From the NCBI GenBank assembly GCA_965205015.1, contig OZ242029.1:4352001-4416000 (forward strand): DNA of 64,000 nt. The letters are read 5' to 3'. The notes beneath the pieces are model-generated. The model was given only the letters and a program-made list of their open reading frames with translations. It was not told the origin of the DNA and did not search any database. Source of the DNA: Candidatus Poribacteria bacterium. Its GTDB lineage: Bacteria; Poribacteria; WGA-4E; WGA-3G. Each line of letters opens with the position of its first letter. Position 1 is the first letter of the stretch. Made by a program: the position numbers and the translations under genes. Below are positions 26,118-36,177 of this stretch, one piece after another.

Positions 26118-27617
26118 ATGGCTCATTTTTTTTCTGAAGCAAGCCGGACTTTCAGTGAGTACTTGCTTTTACCTAACTTAACAACGAAGGATTGTATCCC
26201 GGAAAATGTTGTCCTGAGAACCCCTCTGGTGAAGTTTGAAGTCGGGCAACACCCTTCCCTGGAGGTGAATATTCCGTTGGCTTCTGCCATCATGCAAGCC
26301 GTTTCGGATCACAATTTGGCGATTGCACTGGCGAGACAGGGCGGGATATCCTTTATTTATGGGTCTCAAAGTATTGAAGAGCAGGTAGCAATGGTCCGAG
26401 CCGTTAAAAACCACAAAGCGGGTTTTGTCGTCAGCGACTCAAATTTAAAGTGTGATAACACAATATCAGATGTCGTGAAACTCACCCAAGAAACAGGGCA
26501 CTCGACGATCGCTGTAACCGAAGATGGCTCCCCGTCAGGTGAGCTGCTCGGACTGATAACGGATAAGGACTATCGATTGAGTCGCGTGGATTTAAATACG
26601 AAAGTCAGCGAATTGATGACACCGTTTTCTCAGTTGATCGTTGGTCGAAAGGGAATTACGATTGAAGGTGCCAACGACCTCATTTGGGAACACAAGATAA
26701 ATTGTCTACCGATTGTTGATGAAAATCGTAAACTGGTCCACTTGGTCTTTAGAAAGGATTACGATGACCATAAGAAGAATCCTCTTGAATCCATAGATTC
26801 CCAGAAAAGACTTATCGTCGGTGCCGGTGTGAATACAAGAGATTATAAGGAAAGAGTTCCAGCACTGGTAGAGTCAGGCGTTGATATTATTTGTGTTGAT
26901 TCGTCTGAGGGGTATACAGAATGGCAATCAGACACCATAAAATTCATTAAAAATACGTACGATGGGACTGTGAAAGTGGGCGGCGGGAATGTCGTTCACG
27001 GAGATGCCTTTATGTATCTGGTCGAAGCCGGTGCTGACTTTATAAAAGTGGGTATCGGTGGCGGTGCTATCTGTATAACAAGGGAACAGAAAGGTATTGG
27101 TCGTGGGCAAGCGACTGCCGTCATTGAAGTCGCTCGGCAAAGGGACCTGTATTTGAAGGAAACCGGGGTTTACGTGCCCATTTGCTCAGATGGGGGTATA
27201 TTCCAAGATTATCATATCGGTTTGGCGCTTGCCATGGGTGCTGATTTTGTGATGATGGGCAGATATTTTGCGAGATTTGATGAAAGTCCAAGTAAGATCA
27301 GAAAACTGGGTATGAATACAGTGAAAGAATATTGGGGAGAAGGCACAAAACGAGCCGCCAATTGGCAGCGTTACCACGAGGGCGGCGGTCCAGAATTGTT
27401 GTTCGAGGAGGGTGCTGATGCCTATGTCCCTTATGCAGGAAAGATGAACGATAGTTTGAAAACGACCCTCGCAAAAATCCGATCGCTCATGTGCAATTGT
27501 GGGGCGATATCCCTACCGGAATTCCGTCAAAAAGCGAGATTCGTGTTAGTCTCTTCAGCAAGTATTCGTGAAGGCGGGGTCCACGATATTATCCCAAGAA
27601 CGACGCAGGATGGATAA
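26118..27617 (+). CDS. guaB: IMP dehydrogenase with CBS pair
   Basis: [21 protein letters not shown] (catalytic Cys), CSDGG, MMGRYFA, YWGEG. Confidence 0.93.
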
Positions 27618-27620
27618 AAA

Positions 27621-29153
27621 ATGAAAACTCTCAACAACGAAATCGCGCTTAATCTTGACGGTGATGCAGAGGTGTCTGTCAAAGGTTTCATCGCGCCGAT
27701 TGAGTCCATGGACCCCAATTTCCATGAAGAATGGGATGCGCTGGCAAATTTGCGCGTTGCTGAACCGGAAAAGGCGTACTTTACTTCGGTTTTCCAAGCG
27801 TTCCTTCCAGATAAGCCTGTCTCCGTTGGGGATTACTGGCAGATTGACGACCAAGGCGCGCTTGCCTTGCTGAGGCAATTTCAACCCAATCCGAATCTGG
27901 ATATGCACATTAACGTCGGAGATTCCCGTGGTTTATGGGCATGCCTACGCGCGTACAACGCTGAATTCGCTGATATTGTGTTCCGCATCCATGCGGAATT
28001 TGCGTTAGAGGACGGTTGGTTCACGCCTTCTCAGTTTGCTGGACATCTGGTTATTGACCGTATGAAGAAGCGTGTCGTGTTTTTCCAGATGCGTGTTCCT
28101 GAAGATACATCGTTTGATGTCAACTGGAGGAAACACAAAGATCACTCTGGTTTTATTACCGGTGGTGGCGTTTGTCCGCACATTGAGCTTCTTACGAAAA
28201 TGCCAGATGTTACTCAGGAAACCGAGTTCACAACATCAATCGCGCGAGAAGAGGCTGAACGCATACTGATACAACGCTTCTATAAATCACAGCAAATTAA
28301 CTGGGTGCCATTTGAAGAGGCATCAGAAATATCACAAGCACAACAGAAACCGATCCATACCATTTCAGTCGATGGACCGCTCGCGGACGAGGCATGCTGA
28401 GGGAGCGGCAAAAACTTGAGGGCAGTTGTCCTCTCCGACGAACGAATCATTGAATTTCTGAACGAAAATTTTATCAATACGTGGGTGCGTAATGCCGAGC
28501 TTAGACGCATGCGTGATTCCCAAGGATTTGAGGAAATGCCTCCCTTGGCACGCACAATCATTACTAACAAATGGCGAAGAGGTCCAGTAGATACGTGGGT
28601 TATATCTCCCGAACTTGAAGCGATAGGACACGTAGCGGTCAATGATTACCTTGACAACAACCGCTGCAAGGATGGGACTTTGGAGAGTGAGAATTACCTC
28701 CTATTTCTCACGAATTCCTTAGAGGCAAAACTCCCCGGATTCGGGAACACTGTTCTCACACCCGAGCAACCCTCCCAACGAATATTGGACGTTGTTCGCA
28801 CCCCAGAATATGGACATCAAGACTACACGGTTGTCGTGATTGACACCACTGCATTTGAAAGAGGCGGTGCACTCATCATCGATATTGAAGTAGGTGGTGA
28901 AAAGGCGTATGGATCATTTCATCTTCTGGATGCCGATCACAAACTTACCTTTGATCCTTATTACAAACGTCCCGAAGGAATCCTTCTTGAGGAATCGCAC
29001 GACACAGGTTGGTTGAGTCCCAATGAAACGGGACAAATGACACATCGTTTTGAGTGTGGACAGATCTTCAAATTGGTCGCTCTGGGCTGGGCATCTAACG
29101 AGAAAGGAAGCATCAACGCTTTTCACGCAAGAATTTCTGTAGAGGAAAAGTAA
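27621..29153 (+). CDS. Selenoprotein N-like protein, copy 1 (510 aa, Sec at UGA 28398-28400)
   Basis: ORFs 27621-28400 and 28416-29153 are in one frame, joined by GPLADEAC-TGA-GSGKNLRAVVLSDERII; SECIS-like hairpin downstream; motifs resemble SELENON. Confidence 0.85.
28418..28433 (+). promoter_or_regulatory. Bacterial SECIS-like hairpin (copy 1)
   Basis: GAGGGC-AGTT-GTCCTC; loop starts 24 nt after the UGA. Confidence 0.7.
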
Positions 29154-29154
29154 A

Positions 29155-31152
29155 ATGGAAACTTCACCGAACAAAATCCCTCTCACACTCGGCAGGGATG
29201 CAGCAGTGTCCGTCAAAGGTTTCATCGCACCGATTGAATATACACAGTACAACTTCCACGTGAAATGGGATGAACTGGCGAACTTTCGCGTCGCTGAACC
29301 AGAGAAGCAGTACCCAACATCCATTTTTCAAGCGTTTCTTCCCTCGGAACCGGTTTCGGTCGGTGAATGTTGGGAGATTCAAGAAGAAGGCGCGCTAACG
29401 CTGTTGCGTCAACTTCACCCGAACCCACGACTGGACTTACACTTGGATTCTGGGGATTCTCACGGTTTGTGGGCATGTCTGCGCGCTTACAATAGTGAAT
29501 GTGCTGAAATTCTGTTCCGCATCCACGCCGAATTTGTTATGGAAAATGGTTGCTTTACACCTTCACAATTTGCTGGACGTCTCGTTATTGACCGGGTCCA
29601 CGGAACGATTGTCTCCTTCATGATGCACGTGCCGGCTGCCACACTGAACTTTGATGCAGGCTGGAGGGCCCCGGCGCATCCGGGGGGTGCCGCGGAAATC
29701 GGCTTTTGTCCGAAAATAGAACTCCGTACCGATATTTCAAGTGCTGTGCAGGACACCGAATTCACAGTATCTATTACCGAAGAGGCAGCGAAACGCGCGC
29801 TCATCTTGCGCTTCTATAAGTCACAGCAAATTAACTGGGTATCCTTGGCAGAAGCGTTGGAAATAGCACCCGCACAGCAAAAACCGATTCATGCGATTTC
29901 TGTAGATGGTCCCCTTGTAGATGAAGCCTGCTGAGGGACCGGCAAAGCTTTGAGGACAGGTGTCCTCTCCGACGAACGAATCATCAAATTTCTGAACGAT
30001 AATTTCATCAATACATGGGTTTCCAATTCTGAATTAGGACGCATTCCGAGTTTACGAGCTCCGATCGCCAAAAGACGCGAACGCGAGGGCAAGACCTTTG
30101 ATATGAACCATACTTTGGCACAAGCGATTATAAGAGGGTGGAGCAAATATTCACCGGTGGATTGTATGGTGATCACACATCAATTTGAATTGCTGGGGGG
30201 TATCGACTATAATGTGTTCCTCAGCAACTTGGGAGGTCTGCGCCACACAGAGGCTTACTTACTCTTTCTCAAGGGATCCTTGGACGGAAAACGCCCTGGA
30301 TTGGGAGACGTTATCCTTACTGCTCAACAGCCTTCACAGGAGGTAGTGGACACTTTTCGTATGGTCACGCCTGGGGAGTACACCGTCTTTGCCCTTGATG
30401 CTACAGCGTTTGAAGAGGGTGGCACGCTCAATATTGATATCCAAATCGGTAGAGACACGGCGGACGGTATGTTCTATCTGTTTCACGATGACAGCAAATC
30501 GCCAAAAAGAAAAAAGGTGCTTGATAGGGGAAAAAGCGATGTAGCGGTCTCTGACGCGCTTGCGAAAGTGCTGTGCTTATATGCCGGTGAAACGAAGCAA
30601 ATCAGACACCCTTTTGACCACGGTCAACGTTTTAAATTGTGTGCTATCGGTGATGAGGATGGGTGGTGCGGGGAAGGGGGCGTAAACGCTTTTCATGCAA
30701 AAATTTCTGTAGACGAACATTCCCCGAAGTCTCAGGTTGAATCCTTCACTGCCTCAACCCCTTTGAGCGTTATCCTCGACGGGACACAACCCTCGCAGGA
30801 GATATTGGATATTTTTCGCGCACCGGGAAACGGTTATCAAGATTACACTGTTGTCAATATCGATACAACAGCATTTGAAGACGGTGGCACGCTCAACATT
30901 GATATCCGGGTAGGGAGTGAAGAGGCGGCCGGTTCGTTTGATCTCTTTGATAGTGACACCGAACTCCCGACAGAGGGGATACCTGAAGCGCTCGTCTCGG
31001 CGTGGGTCATTAAATCCGGTAAATCGGGAACAATTAGCCATCGTTTTGAACGAGGTGAAATTTTTAGACTTGGGGCTACTGGAGACTGGTCCAGCGAGAA
31101 AGGGAGGATAAACGCCTTCTCTGCAAAAATTTCCGTGGAAACGGTAGACTAA
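29155..31152 (+). CDS. Selenoprotein N-like protein, copy 2 (665 aa, Sec at UGA 29932-29934)
   Basis: ORFs 29155-29934 and 29950-31152 are in one frame, joined by GPLVDEAC-TGA-GTGKALRTGVLSDERII; paralog of copy 1 with UGA at the same codon (260). Confidence 0.85.
29952..29967 (+). promoter_or_regulatory. Bacterial SECIS-like hairpin (copy 2)
   Basis: GAGGAC-AGGT-GTCCTC; same offset from the UGA as copy 1. Confidence 0.7.
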
Positions 31153-31856
31153 TCATTGATTACTCTCACTGCGAGGCAATCCGACAATCTCACAAACCGA
31201 TATCCATCCCGTTTAAGTGCCGTGATGATTCGATCTGTCGCTTCGATTGTCCCTAAACGGTTTGCCTGCTTATTCTCTGCTTTTCCATCGTGCAGGACGA
31301 TAATCGAACCGGGGCGTGTCTTTTTCAATACCGTTTTAGTGATACGGTCAGGATTCTGTGTCGTCCAATCCCAACTCCAGACGTTGCAGCTGATGTGCAC
31401 GCGGTTACCCTTCGCAAGTACCCACGCGACAGGTAGGAACCTTGTTAAGACCGGTGCCCGAAATACAATCTCTCCGATAATACGCTGTTGCCGAAGCAGC
31501 ACATCTGTTCGTTCAATCTCCCTTCGGACATAGAATGGCGGCAGAAAACCCAGCAAGGGATGGTTATAGGTGTGATTGCCGATCTGGTGTCCCTCAGCAA
31601 TAACCCGATTTACCGTTTCCGGATGCGTTTCGATCCGATTTCCTATCATGAAAAAGGTGGCTTTGACGTTGTGCTTGGCGAGGACATTAAGTAACCGCTC
31701 GGTGTAAGGCGGATTCGGTCCATCGTCGTAGGTGAGCGCGACAATCCGCTGGTCTGTGTTCAGACGAACGATATTCTTTCCGAACGGCGGTCTAAAGAAC
31801 AACCACAGCAGCATCACCATTACAAATGTTCCAACCACTGGGATGATGGGGTTCAT
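31149..31856 (-). CDS. Polysaccharide deacetylase (NodB/CE4) with N-terminal TM anchor
   Basis: ALTYDDGP, GNHTYNH, FRAP, DW, IVLHD motifs. Confidence 0.88.
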   Translation of the reverse strand: MNPIIPVVGTFVMVMLLWLFFRPPFGKNIVRLNTDQRIVALTYDDGPNPPYTERLLNVLAKHNVKATFFMIGNRIETHPETVNRVIAEGHQIGNHTYNHPLLGFLPPFYVRREIERTDVLLRQQRIIGEIVFRAPVLTRFLPVAWVLAKGNRVHISCNVWSWDWTTQNPDRITKTVLKKTRPGSIIVLHDGKAENKQANRLGTIEATDRIITALKRDGYRFVRLSDCLAVRVIND

Positions 31857-32569
31857 TGGGGGCGCGTCCTCATTTTACGTGTGACTGGCAAATGCCACCA
31901 CGGAACGTATGGATACTCGTGGTGTTCCCAATGATACCCAAAGTGATAACAGGTGATAAACGACCAGAATGTTGAATACGCGTTGCTCTGCGCACGGTGG
32001 GGGTTATCATACCCACCTTTCGGTAGACGATGGGGTAGATAGGTCCCGAAATAGAACAGTTGCAACGTGCTAAGTAATGCTGGCGAAACCCAGAACAGTA
32101 TCAGGTTGAGCGTGGGGATCCGCAAAACGTATTCCATAACCTGAAAAACAATTGCCATGCCGACTATCTGTTGCCAACTGAGGTATTCCTTCATAAAATG
32201 AAGATACCACGCCAAGAATCCAGTGTGCTTTCCATCGTGAAAATCCGGATCGGTGCCCCTTGCGGGTGTTCGGTGGTGCGCCCAGTGCTTCTCTAACAAT
32301 TTGCGATATGAAAATAGTGCGTATAACCCGACAGCAATTGCTCCAATTATATTATTGACACGTGGATAGGTCGGGCAAACGGATCCATGCATCGCGTCGT
32401 GTGCTGTGATAAACAGCCCCGTATAGAGAAACGTCTGACACAGTATCCCTATAGGTATCAGCACAATGTTGATATGCCCAACGTCCTGCGTGAGCACAAG
32501 TATGAGACTCAGTCCCCACAATTCGATAATCGTTGCCGCAATGAATAGACCCTTGTTCGTTTTCTTCAT
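31853..32569 (-). CDS. crtW: Beta-carotene ketolase (CrtW type)
   Basis: LYTGLFITAHDAMHG, HWAHH, DPDF, QLFYFGTYLPH, CYHFGYHWEHH. Confidence 0.88.
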   Translation of the reverse strand: MKKTNKGLFIAATIIELWGLSLILVLTQDVGHINIVLIPIGILCQTFLYTGLFITAHDAMHGSVCPTYPRVNNIIGAIAVGLYALFSYRKLLEKHWAHHRTPARGTDPDFHDGKHTGFLAWYLHFMKEYLSWQQIVGMAIVFQVMEYVLRIPTLNLILFWVSPALLSTLQLFYFGTYLPHRLPKGGYDNPHRAQSNAYSTFWSFITCYHFGYHWEHHEYPYVPWWHLPVTRKMRTRPQ

Positions 32570-32572
32570 GTT

Positions 32573-33406
32573 TTACCTTTTCAAAGCCACGAGTCCGAAA
32601 TAGATCAGTTGGGCAAAATAGAGGTGAATTGCGATTCGAGGCAACAGTTGACGAAAGAGTCCGATTTGTAAACCGATTGTTGCAAAGATAAAACTTAATC
32701 CAAACCACACCAGATAGTTCTGCAAGGGGATATCTCCGTTCATCCATGTCCAATAATCCAGTTTCACTGCCGCCGGTTCCATAAGCAAATCAAAGCAGAC
32801 CATTAGCAAAGCCACCAGAATAGCAGTCGGTGAGAGACTCGAATGGAAGGGAGGCAGATTGGACGGATGGGTACCCACCCGTCCTCCCTTCCATCTTTCC
32901 AACCGAGTCCGGAAAGCCGATAGCTGATATGCTAAGGATTTCGATGTAATTTTCTGAGCAACAGCAGTCGAGGCGACGAGCATCACGAACCAAGCAGCCC
33001 CGATGCTGATTGGCACATCCCCAATTGACGGCTGCAATGTCTGTCCGTACTGGTATGAACCGAAAATCTGTCCCGTCCGAACACCGAACCATTCAATACC
33101 GAAACTCACGACAAAAATTCCTATACCTACGATGGCAAATTTTGGTCGTTCATGCCGTGGGTATACTCGCCAGCATTCCCAAAATAGCCATGCCCCCAAA
33201 CCGATCATGATTGGTGAAGCGAGGACGCGCATGATTTCTTGGAACACACCGAGTACATGCCACAATCCACCGGCACCTAAAAGTAGATAGAGTACCCCTA
33301 TTTTATATTTTAATTTTACCTTGCGGAGTAGTCCAGTGAGTTTCTTATTTGAAGTTTTTTTCTCAAGAGTCGCCTGCACCGTTGTTGCAGACTTCGTTTT
33401 CGTCAT
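32573..33406 (-). CDS. cruF: Carotenoid 1,2-hydratase-like membrane protein (CruF/DUF422)
   Basis: E.FGV.TG.IFG.Y.YG, DLLMEPAAVKLDYW.W, PLQNYL.W; gene context; contains repeat-derived insertions. Confidence 0.75.
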   Translation of the reverse strand: MTKTKSATTVQATLEKKTSNKKLTGLLRKVKLKYKIGVLYLLLGAGGLWHVLGVFQEIMRVLASPIMIGLGAWLFWECWRVYPRHERPKFAIVGIGIFVVSFGIEWFGVRTGQIFGSYQYGQTLQPSIGDVPISIGAAWFVMLVASTAVAQKITSKSLAYQLSAFRTRLERWKGGRVGTHPSNLPPFHSSLSPTAILVALLMVCFDLLMEPAAVKLDYWTWMNGDIPLQNYLVWFGLSFIFATIGLQIGLFRQLLPRIAIHLYFAQLIYFGLVALKR

Positions 33407-34579
33407 TTAACTAAGTTTCCTATTTGAAGTTCTTTTCGCAGCCGCTGATTGCTGACTGCTGACTGCTATTTTTAGATCAATCTGCCGTCCTTTCCACTGC
33501 AAACGCCCCCGTCTGACTTGGCAAAACGAATTGATGCCAATCACCAATGTCAACAGTACACCAAATGGATGTAAAATTACGCTGGAAAAGAAAGAGTGCT
33601 TATATTTGAGTGCCAGCACCGTCCGCATAACGATGTTCATAATGATAGCAACGATTGCCGGTCCTCTCAGCGGCGCAAACCAGACAGTGATGTAGGGCAG
33701 AATACACATTGTAAATAGACTCAGGAGTAAAATAAAAAAGGGTATCATCTTGTAGCGGACCAGTCCAAACAGGTTTTTGGAAAATCCGTCCCAGACCTCG
33801 CTGAACGACTGATACATCCTACAAGATACCACACGCGTTCCCGCCGATGTCAAGATTCTGATATCCCTCTTTTTCGCCAATCGGCTGAGTTCAACGTCTT
33901 CAACAATCTGATTAGACACCGCTTGATGCCCACCAACCAATTGATACGCCTCACGGGTGAATGCAATCCAGAGACCGCTCGCCGCGGCAAGCGATGGAAA
34001 ACGGCTGAAGTAGGTAAGCCATAACGGAAGCCCGGCGTAAACGAACATATCCACTACCGGCACGACGAGTTTTTCTGCCAAAGTTATTGTCACTTTCTCT
34101 GGAAATGCTGAGAGCAAGCCAAGTTTCAGTTCCTGTATGTAGGCAACGGTATTTGCAATCGCGTTCGGGGCGGGACGGTTATCCGCATCCGTGAAAATGA
34201 GTATCTCCCCGTCTGCATGTTGGCTCAATTGATGACACGCCCAATTTTTTCCACTCCACCCTGCTGGCAACGGTTCGCCGCAGATTGCTTGAACTTCAGA
34301 GTACTGTTCGCCGAATTCTTCAATAATCGTACCCGTACGATCCGTCGATTGGTCATCAAGCACATAAATCTTGAAGTTATCGTAGTTTTGAGACAGGAAT
34401 CCTTCAATACAGGTGCCAATGTTGGCGTCTTCATTTCGCGCTGGAATCAACACCGAGACGCGTGGACGATTCTGAAGCCCTACGGATTTTTTCAACATCG
34501 GTGCAGTCGCAGCATTAAACAACGTGACTACCAAAACAACCGCCAACAGCACTATCGAAATAAGCATCAGGATAAACAC
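33407..34579 (-). CDS. GT2 glycosyltransferase (carotenoid glycosyltransferase, CruC-like)
   Basis: VSVLIPARNE, DDQSTD, GWSGKNWAC, FTDAD, VEDVEL, CRMY. Confidence 0.82.
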   Translation of the reverse strand: MFILMLISIVLLAVVLVVTLFNAATAPMLKKSVGLQNRPRVSVLIPARNEDANIGTCIEGFLSQNYDNFKIYVLDDQSTDRTGTIIEEFGEQYSEVQAICGEPLPAGWSGKNWACHQLSQHADGEILIFTDADNRPAPNAIANTVAYIQELKLGLLSAFPEKVTITLAEKLVVPVVDMFVYAGLPLWLTYFSRFPSLAAASGLWIAFTREAYQLVGGHQAVSNQIVEDVELSRLAKKRDIRILTSAGTRVVSCRMYQSFSEVWDGFSKNLFGLVRYKMIPFFILLLSLFTMCILPYITVWFAPLRGPAIVAIIMNIVMRTVLALKYKHSFFSSVILHPFGVLLTLVIGINSFCQVRRGRLQWKGRQIDLKIAVSSQQSAAAKRTSNRKLS

Positions 34580-34594
34580 GCCAACACCGGCCTT

Positions 34595-35254
34595 TCAATC
34601 CAGTAGATTTTGTCCCTCTTCTTGACGAAGAATCCGCAAAGCGAGATCATCTAACACTGCAGTTTCAGTCTGTTCAAGCCAATCCATCCCTTGAAATGTT
34701 TCTGGGGCAAACAAGTGGACATCGCCGAACAGAAAAAATACACTCGGACGCTTTTCACCGAGAAACTCGGTCCGAATTGCCAAAGGGAGCACTGCGATGG
34801 ATTTCCCATATTTCTGTAAAATCCATTCAACCCCGCGTCTGTAACCGAGAGGGCGCGTATGCCACGGCAACAGTTGCCCTTGCGGAAAAACTGTGACGAG
34901 CGGCATCTCTGGATTCAGTAATTCCACAGTGTATTCAAGGGATTCAAGAACACTACATCTATTCTCCGGTTCGATTGAATAAGCCCCTATTTTCGCGAAG
35001 AATTTGTATTTCGATAGCTGCTTTTCTAACATCATCAGATAGGCCGTCCGCCGGAAGATTTTTTTGTTGAGCAGATAAACGAAGAATCCATCCCACCATG
35101 TACTGTGGTTTGGCAGTAGTAACACCGGTAGATCGTCAGGTATTTTGGGTGGTGTTCCTAACAGTTGAATCTCATGGAAATTCCGCTTGAACACCCAAGT
35201 CAGATACGGTTGGAAGATAATGTCCGCCCAAAGACGGTGCTGCGCACGAATCAT
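34595..35254 (-). CDS. Acyltransferase (PlsC-like; putative carotenoid glycoside acyltransferase, CruD-like)
   Basis: NHSTWWDG and FPQG motifs; context. Confidence 0.78.
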   Translation of the reverse strand: MIRAQHRLWADIIFQPYLTWVFKRNFHEIQLLGTPPKIPDDLPVLLLPNHSTWWDGFFVYLLNKKIFRRTAYLMMLEKQLSKYKFFAKIGAYSIEPENRCSVLESLEYTVELLNPEMPLVTVFPQGQLLPWHTRPLGYRRGVEWILQKYGKSIAVLPLAIRTEFLGEKRPSVFFLFGDVHLFAPETFQGMDWLEQTETAVLDDLALRILRQEEGQNLLD

Positions 35255-36177
35255 TTGTTGATTATTCCTGAGTGGATTGGGAATAGTTTCTCCTGTGCCG
35301 ATAGGAATTTTGCCCGAATCCCCTCGTGTAACAGGATCCCAATTTTCTGGGTTGCTGGCACAAAGACTCGAGTTAAAAATGGGTCGTAATTGTGATCTTC
35401 AATCTTTCTTAAGATCCCGCGATAAATTTTAGCAGCCGAATAGATCGCATACTGCGATTCCGTTTCGAGCAAAGAAATACCCGGTATGGCTTCGGCGTAA
35501 TAGCGATCTGCACTTTCAACTTGAAATTTCATCAGTTCTTTCAATTGCGGTGTTAGTTTTTCTTCTAAGATGTCTTGCTCCGATACACCGAATCTTGCTA
35601 AATCCTTCTGTGGTAGATAGATGCGTCCCATGTCCTTATCCTCTTTGATGTCCCGCAGGATATTGGTGAGTTGCATGCCAATACCGAGTTGCTTGGCATA
35701 ACCAAACGCACGTTTGTCCTTATAACCGAGGACATAGGTCATCATCAGTCCAACAACAGCCGCGACCCGATAACAGAAAAGAGAGAGTTCATCAAAGGTT
35801 TTATACCGCGTCTTCTGGACATCCATGGCAACCCCTTTGAGCAAATCGAGTGGGTATTCAATAGGGATGCCATACGCCTTGGCGACGAGGATAAAAGCAC
35901 GAATAATTGGATGTTGAGACTCCCCTGTATTGTAAGCAACTTGTAATTCTTCTGTCAAGAGTTGTATCTCTCTAACGATTTCTGTTTCGGTGCGTTGACG
36001 GGGCGTATCAATCAGATTGTCGCAGTGTCGACAGAAACCGTATAATGCATAAGTTGCCCAACGCTTTTCTTTGGGCAGCATTCTTGCTGAGAAGTAAAAA
36101 CTTTTTGAATAGTAGGCGGTTATCCTGCGGGCATATTCAAAGGCGATCCGATTTTCTTCTGCTTTCCACAATTTCAT
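35251..36177 (-). CDS. crtB: Phytoene synthase
   Basis: YSKSFYF, YGFCRHCDNLID, CYRVAAVVG, QLTNILRDIKED, RIYLP. Confidence 0.93.
   Translation of the reverse strand: MKLWKAEENRIAFEYARRITAYYSKSFYFSARMLPKEKRWATYALYGFCRHCDNLIDTPRQRTETEIVREIQLLTEELQVAYNTGESQHPIIRAFILVAKAYGIPIEYPLDLLKGVAMDVQKTRYKTFDELSLFCYRVAAVVGLMMTYVLGYKDKRAFGYAKQLGIGMQLTNILRDIKEDKDMGRIYLPQKDLARFGVSEQDILEEKLTPQLKELMKFQVESADRYYAEAIPGISLLETESQYAIYSAAKIYRGILRKIEDHNYDPFLTRVFVPATQKIGILLHEGIRAKFLSAQEKLFPIHSGIINK

What the first reader, a model, noticed from the sequence alone, without database searches (positions are those of the whole stretch)
27621..31152. Tandem pair of bacterial selenoprotein N (SELENON)-like genes hidden by in-frame UGA
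Seen: the four ORFs form two same-frame pairs, each broken by one TGA at codon 260, reading DGPLADEAC-*-GSGKNLRAVVLSDERIIEFLNENFINTW and DGPLVDEAC-*-GTGKALRTGVLSDERIIKFLNDNFINTW. The two paralogs have diverged widely but keep the TGA and conserved coding on both sides. The 'downstream ORFs' have only TTG starts inside this conserved block. UGA is a normal stop in this genome (rqcH and rnj end in TGA, and prfB uses its UGA frameshift), so this is not codon reassignment. Known, recalled from memory: human SELENON has [36 protein letters not shown] and upstream RIHAEFQL..FWFSPAQFTGHI, matched here by RIHAEFAL..WFTPSQFAGHL. Inference: two thioredoxin-fold selenoproteins (510 and 665 aa) with a vicinal Cys-Sec redox site, homologous to an animal ER protein, with no evident TM anchor or signal peptide. 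Standard pipelines would annotate them as four hypothetical proteins.
Basis: partly seen in the sequence, partly recalled or inferred. Interest (0 to 1): 0.93.

Follow-up and report, generated by a model that had tools for sequence, protein, structure and literature searches.

The report
Bacterial selenoprotein N homologues, tandem pair
Two neighbouring genes of a sponge-symbiont bacterium each use a UGA codon for selenocysteine and are bacterial relatives of animal selenoprotein N, a muscle-disease protein whose chemistry is still poorly understood.

Summary
Window 27621-29153 and 29155-31152 are two single genes (510 and 665 aa), each with one in-frame TGA at codon 260 in ...DEAC-U-GxGK. They are homologous to animal selenoprotein N: phmmer E about 1e-21 over 1.84 billion proteins, and hhalign probability 100, E 3e-42, over 345 columns.

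The organism is a Poribacteria sponge symbiont. In 77 related loci, 193 of 193 copies of the motif carry TGA. A 6-bp hairpin 20-35 nt after the TGA is conserved, with frozen synonymous sites and compensatory changes. dN/dS is 0.11-0.28 on both sides of the TGA. Cys forms exist in other bacteria. selA, selB, tRNA-Sec and a Sec-containing selD are present in 5 of 5 related genomes.

The family is expanded to 8-17 TGA-bearing copies per complete genome, often in tandem arrays, and also occurs in Planctomycetota. AlphaFold puts Cys-Sec at the start of helix 1 of a DsbH/AGR-type thioredoxin fold. This fold follows a beta domain with no PDB match and precedes one or two jelly-roll domains. The transmembrane anchor and EF-hand of SELENON are absent.

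I found no description of bacterial SELENON homologues in seven literature searches. Selenium insertion itself is inferred, not shown.

The parts
27621..29153 (+). Gene 1: SELENON-like selenoprotein, 510 aa including Sec260, stop TAA. It starts 3 nt after the IMPDH gene's stop.
   Evidence: homology; dN/dS 0.11-0.28 on both sides of the TGA against 8 orthologues
28398..28400 (+). In-frame TGA = Sec codon 260 of gene 1 (motif A-C-U-G)
   Evidence: (193 of 193 TGA)
28418..28433 (+). Putative bacterial SECIS hairpin of gene 1: GAGGGC-AGUU-GUCCUC, at +20..+35 from the U of UGA
   Evidence: 95.7% of cells paired in 179 unique sequences; compensatory G:C/A:U changes at pair 23-32
27621..28220 (+). 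Gene 1 N-terminal beta-rich domain (residues 1-200) with the FRIHAEF / TPSQF motifs shared with SELENON
   Evidence: pLDDT mostly above 90; alignment; no PDB fold match
28233..28736 (+). Gene 1 thioredoxin-like domain (residues ~205-372). Cys259-Sec260 lies just before helix 261-268, and the nearly invariant Pro322 lies before strand 323-328.
   Evidence: (DsbH, Thioredox_DsbH, AGR2/3, ERp19, thioredoxin; prob 1.00, TMt 0.52-0.71)
28746..29150 (+). Gene 1 C-terminal beta-sandwich (jelly-roll-like) domain, residues ~376-510
   Evidence: the same module sits at the C-terminus of an S9 peptidase and of an ECF sigma factor
29155..31152 (+). Gene 2: SELENON-like selenoprotein, 665 aa including Sec260, stop TAA. 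It starts 1 nt after gene 1's stop and is 54-58% identical to gene 1.
29932..29934 (+). In-frame TGA = Sec codon 260 of gene 2
29952..29967 (+). Putative SECIS hairpin of gene 2: GAGGAC-AGGU-GUCCUC. The G-to-A change in the 5' arm relative to gene 1 still pairs with U.
30307..30717 (+). Gene 2, first copy of the C-terminal beta-sandwich module (approximate limits; QPSQ motif at residue 392)
30766..31149 (+). Gene 2, second copy of the C-terminal beta-sandwich module (approximate limits; QPSQ motif at residue 545)
26118..27617 (+). Upstream IMP dehydrogenase gene. The order IMPDH - SELENON-like array - convergent polysaccharide deacetylase (31149-31856, minus strand) is conserved in relatives. 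This is context only; no functional link is shown.

Best explanation
The two genes encode bacterial homologues of the conserved core of selenoprotein N. In each, UGA260 is decoded as selenocysteine by the bacterial SelB route. A 6-bp hairpin inside the coding sequence, 20-35 nt after the UGA, acts as the SECIS element and recruits SelB with Sec-tRNA(Sec). Translation then continues into the rest of a thioredoxin-fold domain and one (gene 1) or two (gene 2) C-terminal beta-sandwich modules.

The product has a vicinal Cys259-Sec260 pair at the N-terminal end of helix 1 of a DsbH/AGR/ERp18-type thioredoxin fold. That is the canonical redox-active position. The pair most likely cycles between selenol/thiol and an intramolecular selenenylsulfide, and so acts as a thiol-disulfide or sulfenate oxidoreductase, or as a redox sensor, on protein partners. 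The partners are presumably held by the N-terminal beta domain and the C-terminal modules.

Both window copies lack a signal peptide, so they should work in the cytoplasm. They belong to a family expanded to 8-17 Sec-bearing copies per Poribacteria genome.

Shown: the gene structure, the homology, the conservation of the UGA and the hairpin, the selection on both sides, Sec machinery in relatives, and the predicted fold. Inferred: actual Sec insertion, redox chemistry, substrates and localisation.
For: 1. Single-gene structure. One TGA per gene at codon 260. dN/dS is 0.11-0.28 upstream and 0.11-0.25 downstream of the TGA against 8 orthologues.

2. Conserved UGA. 193 of 193 motif instances have TGA. 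All 150 listed matches in 175 genomes of the phylum carry an in-frame TGA, one of them two.

3. Sec/Cys pairing. P0127, P0129, P0132 and P0149 read C-C at this column.

4. SECIS hairpin.
- 95.7% of cells are paired, against 44-81% when the 3' partner is slid.
- Pair 23-32 is G:C in 112, A:U in 22 and G:U in 22 sequences. None of 2000 shuffles reached this.
- Synonymous sites are frozen against the genes' own codon usage: Leu YTG 175/179 (background 0.39), Arg AGR 179/179 (0.31), Leu CTC 171/179 (0.19), Cys TGC 177/179 (0.48).
- A rival extended stem is 84.7% paired, has no compensatory changes, and is less stable in 144 of 179 sequences.
- The relatives' selD, itself with a TGA, has a comparable 6-bp hairpin with an AGG loop at +14..+28.

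5. Machinery in 5 of 5 related complete genomes: selA at E 1e-154 to 1e-158, tRNA-Sec at 59-78 bits (gathering score 47) next to selB, and selD over its cut-off.

6. SELENON homology. Whole-library phmmer gives E 1.1e-21 (wombat) and 1.4e-21 (Nematostella). The wombat protein's relatives are named Selenoprotein N, human included. BLASTP gives E 5e-27 and 1e-28. hhalign gives probability 100, E 3.2e-42, over 345 columns.

7. Fold. AF2 gives pLDDT 86.9 for the whole protein and 91.0 for the core. Foldseek matches DsbH, Thioredox_DsbH, AGR2/3, ERp19 and thioredoxin.

8. RNA libraries. Contigs of four metatranscriptome runs from one study, about 92% identical, span gene 1 across the TGA.
Against: - No direct evidence of selenium insertion: no proteomics and no 75Se labelling.
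- The window's own genome is not held, and the window has no tRNA or Rfam hit. The Sec machinery is therefore shown only in relatives that are 71-90% identical in this gene.
- For each single sequence the hairpin's folding energy is no better than shuffles (z +1.0 to -0.5). Its support is comparative only. Because the sequences are related, the shuffle statistics overstate significance.
- A Shine-Dalgarno-like GGGAG lies 11 nt before the downstream TTG of gene 1, so some termination plus re-initiation cannot be excluded.
- In one orthologue group Sec is replaced by Gly (a GGC codon), and in P0014/P0015 the column reads Trp. The selenol is therefore not indispensable for every member.
- Pfam and NCBIfam give no thioredoxin hit.
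- The RNA-library contigs cannot prove transcription or read-through.
Confidence: 0.9

Rival explanations
1. Four separate genes. Translation stops at UGA, giving a 259-aa N-terminal protein, and a second protein starts at the TTG 15 nt downstream.
For: Table-11 ORFs exist with TTG starts. A GGGAG stretch lies 11 nt before the TTG of gene 1. Public annotations call the N-terminal halves as stand-alone 280-282 aa proteins.
Against: The conserved peptide block runs straight across the TGA in one frame. The Cys forms and the Gly form are single uninterrupted ORFs. Animal SELENON aligns across the junction. The model puts the break inside one thioredoxin-fold domain, between strand 1 and helix 1. 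A TGA kept in 193 of 193 copies, with never TAA or TAG, is unexpected for a plain stop.
Confidence: 0.04
2. UGA is read through by something other than Sec: near-cognate Trp/Cys/Gly insertion or a local code change.
For: Some homologues have Gly or Trp at the column. No direct Sec evidence exists.
Against: TGA ends 9 other long ORFs in the window, including rqcH and rnj. A full Sec machinery is present in 5 of 5 relatives. A conserved hairpin sits at SECIS-like spacing. The column is Cys in distant homologues. Animal homologues are named selenoproteins.
Confidence: 0.03
3. Decaying pseudogenes with a shared nonsense mutation.
For: Each gene has an in-frame stop under table 11.
Against: dN/dS is 0.11-0.28 on both sides. 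There are no further stops or frameshifts. The same single TGA occurs in 193 of 193 copies that are 50-90% identical.
Confidence: 0.01
4. On origin rather than identity: the Poribacteria genes were acquired recently from the sponge host's SELENON gene.
For: Poribacteria live in sponges (record titles). The sponge Amphimedon has a SelN gene (PMC3473315, passages). An AU test does not reject a tree joining the animal and Poribacteria clades (p 0.222).
Against: Identity to animal SELENON is only 28-31%, against 34-36% to other bacterial forms. The ML trees nest the Poribacteria clade among Planctomycetota-type and Cys-form bacterial sequences and place animals elsewhere. The genes have no EF-hand or transmembrane region, use a bacterial in-ORF hairpin, and occur in 130 of 175 genomes of the phylum.
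Confidence: 0.08

Closest known systems
Animal selenoprotein N (SELENON / SEPN1 / SelN)
   Same: The two share a homologous core of about 350 residues (hhalign probability 100, E 3.2e-42). It comprises a beta-rich domain with the FRIHAEF and (T/S)P(S/A)QF motifs, followed by a thioredoxin-like domain. The Cys just before the Sec aligns. Three animal gene models are disrupted exactly there. Like SELENON in algae (PMC7539508, passages), the family is almost always the Sec form.
   Different: The window proteins have no N-terminal transmembrane anchor, no EF-hand and no ER context; PMC9344019 (passages) gives these features for SELENON. They carry one or two extra C-terminal beta-sandwich modules. 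Sec decoding would use a bacterial in-ORF hairpin and not a 3'-UTR SECIS. The genes are multi-copy tandem arrays, whereas animals have one gene. The SCUG wording of the animal motif is recalled, not taken from a call.
Bacterial selenoproteins of the thioredoxin-fold class (Trx-like, Prx-like, DsbA-like, SelW-like families of the marine selenoproteome surveys)
   Same: An in-frame UGA sits at the redox position of a thioredoxin fold, with Cys homologues, an in-ORF stem-loop, and dependence on selA/selB/selC/selD. The general pattern is described in PMC2398784 (passages).
   Different: The motif is a vicinal C-U and not CxxU or UxxC. The protein has a large N-terminal domain without a PDB fold match. 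SelN/SELENON is not named in the main texts I could search; supplements were not visible.
DsbH / Thioredox_DsbH (DUF255-type) and AGR/ERp18 thioredoxin-like proteins
   Same: These are the best structural matches for residues ~205-372: 3ira, 7tkv, 2ju5, 9i3u, 3ph9 and 1sen, with prob 1.00 and TMt 0.52-0.67.
   Different: Sequence identity is 14-18%, there is no Pfam hit, and the redox motif is CU and not CxxC or CxxS.
Thioredoxin reductase C-terminal Gly-Cys-Sec-Gly redox centre (recalled from general knowledge)
   Same: A vicinal Cys-Sec followed by Gly is expected to form a selenenylsulfide.
   Different: In thioredoxin reductase the motif sits on a flexible C-terminal tail of a flavoenzyme. 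Here it lies inside a thioredoxin fold. No homology is implied and none was tested.

Membership tests
SELENON (selenoprotein N) family | Significant sequence homology over the conserved core downstream of the EF-hand | tested here: met
   phmmer E 1.1e-21 and 1.4e-21 over 1.84e9 proteins. BLASTP E 5e-27 and 1e-28. hhalign probability 100, E 3.2e-42, 345 columns, SELENON profile positions 121-551 of 554. The hit's relatives are named Selenoprotein N.
SELENON (selenoprotein N) family | Sec directly after a Cys and before Gly, at the homologous position | tested here: met
   Window: A-C-U-G. The preceding Cys aligns with the animal ...DDQSC. Animal records skip, truncate or mis-splice exactly here (P0247, P0248, P0221). 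Many unnamed relatives end at ...DDQSC. That the animal residue is Sec rests on the family's name and on recalled knowledge.
SELENON (selenoprotein N) family | N-terminal transmembrane anchor (type II ER membrane protein) | tested here: not met
   The window copies have no hydrophobic N-terminal stretch, and their ORFs cannot extend upstream. The feature is as described in PMC9344019.
SELENON (selenoprotein N) family | Luminal EF-hand calcium sensor | tested here: not met
   No Pfam family was found at E up to 1 apart from one noise hit. The hhalign match starts after the EF-hand region.
SELENON (selenoprotein N) family | Redox activity towards SERCA in the ER | not testable with these tools
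   This is biochemistry. A bacterium has no ER or SERCA context.
Bacterial SelB-dependent selenoprotein gene | In-frame UGA conserved among orthologues and paralogues, with coding constraint on both sides | tested here: met
   193 of 193 TGA. 150 of 150 listed matches carry a TGA. dN/dS 0.11-0.28 on both sides.
Bacterial SelB-dependent selenoprotein gene | Homologues with Cys at the Sec column | tested here: met
   P0127, P0129, P0132 and P0149 read C-C.
Bacterial SelB-dependent selenoprotein gene | Stem-loop shortly downstream of the UGA inside the ORF (bacterial SECIS) | tested here: met
   A hairpin at +20..+35 is conserved in 179 unique sequences, with compensatory changes and frozen synonymous sites. 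It resembles the selD hairpin of the same lineage. The published spacing and loop rules of bSECISearch are recalled and were not checked in a paper. Single-sequence energies are not significant.
Bacterial SelB-dependent selenoprotein gene | selA, selB, selC (tRNA-Sec) and selD in the genome | tested here: inconclusive
   The window's genome is not held and none of these genes is in the window. All four are present in 5 of 5 related complete Poribacteria genomes.
Bacterial SelB-dependent selenoprotein gene | Selenium actually incorporated | not testable with these tools
   Needs 75Se labelling or mass spectrometry.
Thioredoxin-fold oxidoreductase (DsbH/AGR/ERp18-like) | Thioredoxin fold | tested here: met
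   AF2 core model with pLDDT 91.0 and pTM 0.88. Foldseek prob 1.00 to DsbH, Thioredox_DsbH, AGR2/3, ERp19 and thioredoxin, TMt 0.52-0.71.
Thioredoxin-fold oxidoreductase (DsbH/AGR/ERp18-like) | Redox motif at the N-terminus of helix 1, and a conserved Pro before strand 3 | tested here: met
   C259-U260 lies directly before helix 261-268, after strand 245-250. P322 is nearly invariant, animals included, and precedes strand 323-328. Its cis conformation was not assessed.
Thioredoxin-fold oxidoreductase (DsbH/AGR/ERp18-like) | Match to a curated thioredoxin-family sequence model | tested here: not met
   No Pfam or NCBIfam hit.

The most novel reading that the evidence does not exclude
The catalytic core of selenoprotein N is an old and widespread bacterial selenoprotein module, and the animal protein is a late derivative that added a membrane anchor and an EF-hand. 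Poribacteria have multiplied the module into the largest single-family set of selenoprotein genes seen in a bacterium: at least 8-17 Sec genes per genome, in fast-turning tandem arrays with swapped C-terminal modules. They use it as a diversified intracellular and secreted redox-sensing or repair system tied to life inside sponges. Its fusion to ECF sigma factors in other bacteria would mean that the module works as a redox sensor, which would also recast what SELENON senses in muscle.
Probability: 0.35. Interest if true: 0.9.

Novelty: new variant of a known kind. Interest (0 to 1): 0.8.

Why it matters
SELENON mutations cause a congenital myopathy. Yet the protein has no match among solved structures by sequence, no Pfam model, and only partly understood chemistry (PMC9344019, passages). 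Four things follow from the bacterial branch found here.

1. **Soluble material for structure and enzymology.** The bacterial proteins have no membrane anchor, exist as natural Cys forms, and give confident models.
2. **A clean natural experiment on which residues matter.** R122, P136 and P160 are invariant, and the FRIHAEF motif, PSQF motif, C259 and P322 are nearly so, from bacteria to man.
3. **An evolutionary origin for a family treated as a eukaryotic or animal selenoprotein.** PMC7016017 (passages) treats SelN as a metazoan accretion.
4. **Hundreds of genes now annotated as pairs of hypothetical proteins.**

The finding also shows that sponge symbionts, whose bins were reported as enriched in SelA/SelB (PMC5649159, passage), spend that machinery largely on one expanded family. 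Their selenoproteomes are therefore much larger than annotation suggests.

Tried and rejected
**Things that led nowhere or were rejected**

- Pfam and NCBIfam on both proteins, on a SELENON and on a Cys form gave nothing.
- A PDB sequence search gave no hit at E up to 1.
- The whole-model Foldseek list was dominated by generic jelly-roll matches to the C-terminal domain, including weak full-length matches to Cry and other toxin structures with TM about 0.15, which I regard as meaningless. I therefore modelled residues 1-372 alone.
- The N-terminal beta domain found no PDB match (prob below 0.15). The CorA/MopE match (TMt 0.40) was too weak to use.
- Single-sequence folding of the SECIS region was not better than shuffles.
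- An extended stem that pairs the bases right after the UGA was considered and rejected in favour of the compact hairpin.
- I suspected that the Gly and Trp forms were translation-table artefacts of the protein database. For the Gly form this is wrong: the DNA has GGC. The Trp forms (P0014, P0015) were not checked at DNA level.
- The AU test on the 113-row tree did not finish in three runs. On a reduced 42-row set it did not reject animals plus Poribacteria as one side of a branch (p 0.222). The direction and age of any transfer therefore stay open.
- RNA evidence: four metatranscriptome runs held only 8% of the sampled words. Laid out, they are contigs of a relative about 92% identical, covering gene 1 only. 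The uncovered gene 2 says nothing.
- The MAFFT run timed out and was redone with faster settings.
- The selD motif search found nothing and was redone more loosely.

**Literature**

- Seven searches found no paper on bacterial SELENON homologues.
- Term look-ups in the main texts of PMC2398784, PMC9312934, PMC13188914 and PMC13326102 found no SelN or SELENON.
The family tables of the GOS study and of BSepDB (111 families) could hold an unnamed 'hypothetical' family that corresponds to this one.

- The genome search 'own' had no genome.

Full report
**1. The observation**

Under the standard bacterial code the region holds four + strand ORFs:
- 27621..28400 (259 aa, ATG)
- 28416..29153 (245 aa, TTG)
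- 29155..29934 (259 aa, ATG)
- 29950..31152 (400 aa, TTG)

With TGA read as a residue they become two ORFs of 510 and 665 aa. Each has exactly one TGA, at codon 260 (28398-28400 and 29932-29934), inside ...DGPLADEAC-U-GSGKNLRAVVLSDERIIEFLNENFINTW and its paralogue. The two proteins are 54-58% identical.

TGA is otherwise an ordinary stop in the window. It ends 9 other ORFs of 250 aa or more. I did not check the prfB claim.

**2. Whose genes these are**

The closest relatives are hypothetical proteins of Candidatus Poribacteria, uncultured symbionts of marine sponges.
- A scan of species-representative genomes found 311 relatives. The 77 loci kept were all from Poribacteria or 'uncultured bacterium' MAGs, the best 89% identical.
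- The gene order IMPDH - one to three SELENON-like genes - convergent polysaccharide deacetylase recurs in L001-L010. The window therefore comes from a Poribacteria genome.
- No whole genome is held for the window itself.

**3. Is the TGA a Sec codon?**

Several independent lines agree.

- *Conservation of the TGA.* In the window plus the 77 loci, a motif that allows any residue at the critical position occurs 193 times, and the codon is TGA in all 193. Across 175 genomes of the phylum, 130 have a match at E <= 1e-20. All 150 listed matches contain an in-frame TGA, and one has two.
- *Selection.* Against eight orthologues, dN/dS is 0.12-0.28 upstream and 0.11-0.25 downstream of the TGA, in the same frame.
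- *Cys forms.* Distant bacterial homologues read straight through with Cys at this column: P0127, P0129, P0132 and P0149, motif ...DE(S/A)C-C-(G/A)(S/T)GK. This is the usual Sec/Cys signature.
- *Truncated database entries.* At least 75 of the 148 representative hits examined end exactly at the Cys before this column. Gene callers would produce this at a UGA.
- *Sec machinery.* Five of five related complete genomes have:
  - selA (E 1e-154 to 1e-158);
  - a tRNA-Sec at 59-78 bits (gathering score 47) lying beside a selB ORF of 647-656 aa;
  - selD, which itself contains one in-frame TGA.

  An earlier metagenomic study had noted SelA/SelB co-occurring in most sponge-symbiont bins (PMC5649159, one passage).

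**4. The SECIS candidate**

Downstream of the TGA, 179 unique sequences share a hairpin at +20..+35. Its stem is 5'-GAGRGC paired with GYNCUC-3', and its loop is AGKU.

- *Pairing.* 95.7% of pair cells are canonical, against 44-81% when the 3' partner is slid by 1-3 columns.
- *Covariation.* Pair 23-32 is G:C in 112, A:U in 22 and G:U in 22 sequences, with 23 mismatches. None of 2000 column shuffles reached this. The sequences are related, so this is not a true probability.
- *Frozen synonymous sites.* Compared with the same genes' overall codon usage:
  - the Leu before the stem is always YTG (175/179; background 0.39);
  - Arg is always AGR (179/179; 0.31);
  - the Leu in the 3' arm is CTC (171/179; 0.19);
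  - the Cys before Sec is TGC (177/179; 0.48).
- *Rival structure.* An alternative extended stem using the bases right after the UGA is 84.7% paired, shows only pair-breaking variation, and is less stable than the hairpin in 144 of 179 sequences.
- *Internal control.* The selD gene of the same lineage has a 6-bp hairpin with an AGG loop at +14..+28 after its own UGA.
- *Caveats.* Taken singly, the window's two hairpins do not fold better than shuffles. The published bSECIS spacing rules are recalled, not checked.

**5. Homology to selenoprotein N**

- A full phmmer pass over 1.84 billion representatives gave 486 hits at E <= 1e-3. Among them were a wombat protein (E 1.1e-21), a Nematostella protein (E 1.4e-21) and a jellyfish protein.
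- The wombat protein's relatives are named Selenoprotein N in UniRef and NCBI, the human one included.
- BLASTP of gene 1 against the wombat protein gives E 5e-27, with 28% identity over 294 columns. The Cys before Sec aligns, and the animal record has a two-residue gap where U-G would stand. Gene 2 against Nematostella gives E 1e-28.
- A profile of 14 Poribacteria sequences against a profile of 12 animal SELENON sequences gives hhalign probability 100, E 3.2e-42, over 345 columns. The match covers residues 18-373 of gene 1 and positions 121-551 of 554 of the SELENON profile. That is everything after the EF-hand.
- Neither Pfam nor NCBIfam has a model for either side.

**6. Structure**

- AlphaFold2 with a 61-row alignment gave mean pLDDT 86.9 and pTM 0.79 for the whole protein. 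Residues 1-372 alone gave pLDDT 91.0 and pTM 0.88.
- The protein has three parts:
  - a beta-rich N-terminal domain (1-200);
  - a thioredoxin-like domain (~205-372);
  - a C-terminal beta sandwich (~376-510).
- In the thioredoxin-like domain, strand 245-250 is followed by C259-U260 and then helix 261-268. The nearly invariant Pro322 precedes strand 323-328. This is the classical geometry of a thioredoxin active site.
- Foldseek against the PDB matches this domain to a DUF255-type domain (3ira), a Thioredox_DsbH protein (7tkv), DsbH (2ju5), AGR2/AGR3, ERp19 and thioredoxins, with prob 1.00 and TMt 0.52-0.71.
- The N-terminal domain has no credible PDB match.
- The C-terminal domain resembles generic jelly-roll or CBM-like modules. 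It also occurs at the C-terminus of an S9 peptidase (P0261) and of an ECF sigma factor (P0226). Gene 2 has two copies of it.

**7. Size and shape of the family**

- *Copy number.* Using P0001 as query at E <= 1e-10, five complete Poribacteria chromosomes hold 9, 8, 8, 9 and 17 TGA-bearing copies (my count from the table).
- *Tandem arrays.* Loci of about 9.5 kb hold up to six copies in tandem.
- *Signal peptides.* Of 179 complete ORFs in the 77 loci, only 15 have a hydrophobic N-terminus. A second abundant subfamily, truncated in databases at 280-282 aa, does have one. Cytoplasmic and exported forms therefore coexist, and the window's two are of the first kind.
- *Lengths.* ORF lengths cluster at 500-575 aa and at 650-700 aa.
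- *Loss of Sec.* In one orthologue group Sec has been replaced by Gly. The codon is GGC in genome G006, with the hairpin still largely intact, while the orthologue in G003 keeps TGA.
- *Outside Poribacteria.* Named relatives come from Planctomycetota MAGs. Other relatives are fused to ECF sigma factors (P0129, a Cys form; P0239, cut at the Sec) or to leucine-rich repeats (P0233).

**8. Phylogeny**

- A 113-row tree of the N-terminal domain puts the window's genes in a Poribacteria clade (SH-aLRT 99). This clade nests among '...DDESC' sequences that include the Planctomycetota and Cys forms.
- The seven named animal rows, plus one unnamed row, form a long-stemmed clade (SH-aLRT 100). It lies in the other half of the tree, among unnamed '...DDQSC' groups. 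At least one of those groups carries a bacterial lipoprotein-type signal (P0152; my reading).
- A reduced 42-row tree agrees, but an AU test does not reject joining animals with the Poribacteria clade (p 0.222).
- A recent host-to-symbiont transfer is therefore unlikely on identity and topology, but it is not formally excluded. The root is unknown.

**9. How it most likely works**

*Shown:* the gene structure, homology, conservation and predicted fold.

*Inferred:*
- SelB with Sec-tRNA(Sec) binds the +20..+35 hairpin while the ribosome sits at UGA260 and inserts Sec.
- The Cys259-Sec260 pair at the N-cap of helix 1 forms a reversible selenenylsulfide.
- The pair exchanges reducing equivalents with protein thiols, disulfides or sulfenates held by the flanking domains.
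- The cytoplasmic thiol systems re-reduce it.
- The ECF-sigma fusions hint at a sensing role.

I put about 0.9 on 'true Sec-decoded SELENON homologues'. I put about 0.7 on 'thiol/selenol oxidoreductase or redox sensor'. I place no weight on any particular substrate.

**10. Expression**

Four metatranscriptome runs of one study contain contigs about 92% identical to gene 1. They run from 27621 to 29140, across the TGA, at word depth 15-48. This shows that a close relative's gene is present in RNA libraries as one piece. It does not prove transcription or read-through.

**11. Novelty**

- SELENON is described in animals, sponges included (PMC3473315, passages), and in a few algae (PMC7539508, passages).
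- A study of ER calcium systems treats SelN as a metazoan accretion (PMC7016017, passages).
- Seven full-text searches gave no description of bacterial homologues.
- Term look-ups in the GOS selenoproteome paper, two reviews of prokaryotic selenoproteomes and the BSepDB paper also gave none.
- Supplementary tables could not be read, and subscription journals are not covered. PANTHER/InterPro membership could not be consulted.
- I therefore file this as a new variant of a known kind: a bacterial, anchor-less, EF-hand-less, multi-copy branch of the SELENON family, decoded through a bacterial SECIS.

Noticed in passing
L119 (genome G006) versus L065/L089 (genome G003): In one orthologue group with a 28-aa insertion and a signal peptide, Sec is replaced by Gly. 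The codon is GGC and the preceding Cys codon is TGT, while the hairpin is still largely intact. The 80%-identical orthologue in another genome keeps TGA. Sec-to-Gly, rather than Sec-to-Cys, is an unusual replacement.
   Followed up: partly
P0014, P0015 (database proteins, 526 aa): Two full-length relatives read Trp at the Sec column, and P0015 also lacks the preceding Cys. I did not check at DNA level whether this is a true TGG codon or a TGA translated under another table.
   Followed up: no
L087, L088 (selD loci of genomes G004, G001); L080-L086: Poribacteria selD is itself a selenoprotein gene (...KCAG-U-ASKLAPGE), with a 6-bp hairpin and an AGG loop 14-28 nt after the UGA. The tRNA-Sec gene lies within about 40-180 nt of the selB ORF.
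   Followed up: partly
P0129, P0239, P0226, P0261, P0233 (database proteins): The SELENON-like core is fused behind ECF sigma-factor domains in two proteins and behind leucine-rich repeats in one. The C-terminal jelly-roll module alone follows an ECF sigma factor in one protein and an S9 prolyl-oligopeptidase in another.
   Followed up: partly
L033:1451-3445, L033:3929-5932, L076:3923-5932: Some secreted paralogues carry a further C-terminal module of about 110 aa (...VMNAFVKAFKNLD...KVEGIWLIY) with no Pfam match.
   Followed up: no
L001-L010 versus window 26118-31856: The number of SELENON-like genes between IMPDH and the polysaccharide deacetylase varies from one to three among close relatives. 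Window gene 2 has no close orthologue; the best is 67% identical. The array therefore turns over quickly.
   Followed up: partly
window 31149-36177, minus strand: A run of genes sits convergent to the selenoprotein pair: polysaccharide deacetylase, fatty-acid-desaturase-like, carotenoid biosynthesis protein, glycosyltransferase 2, acyltransferase and phytoene/squalene synthase. This looks like a carotenoid (glycoside ester?) cluster.
   Followed up: no
window 28014-28048 and 30002-30026: In run X4, one 539-nt RNA-library contig at depth 299 touches both genes at their conserved blocks, with 452 other letters between. It most likely comes from another paralogue or organism.
   Followed up: no
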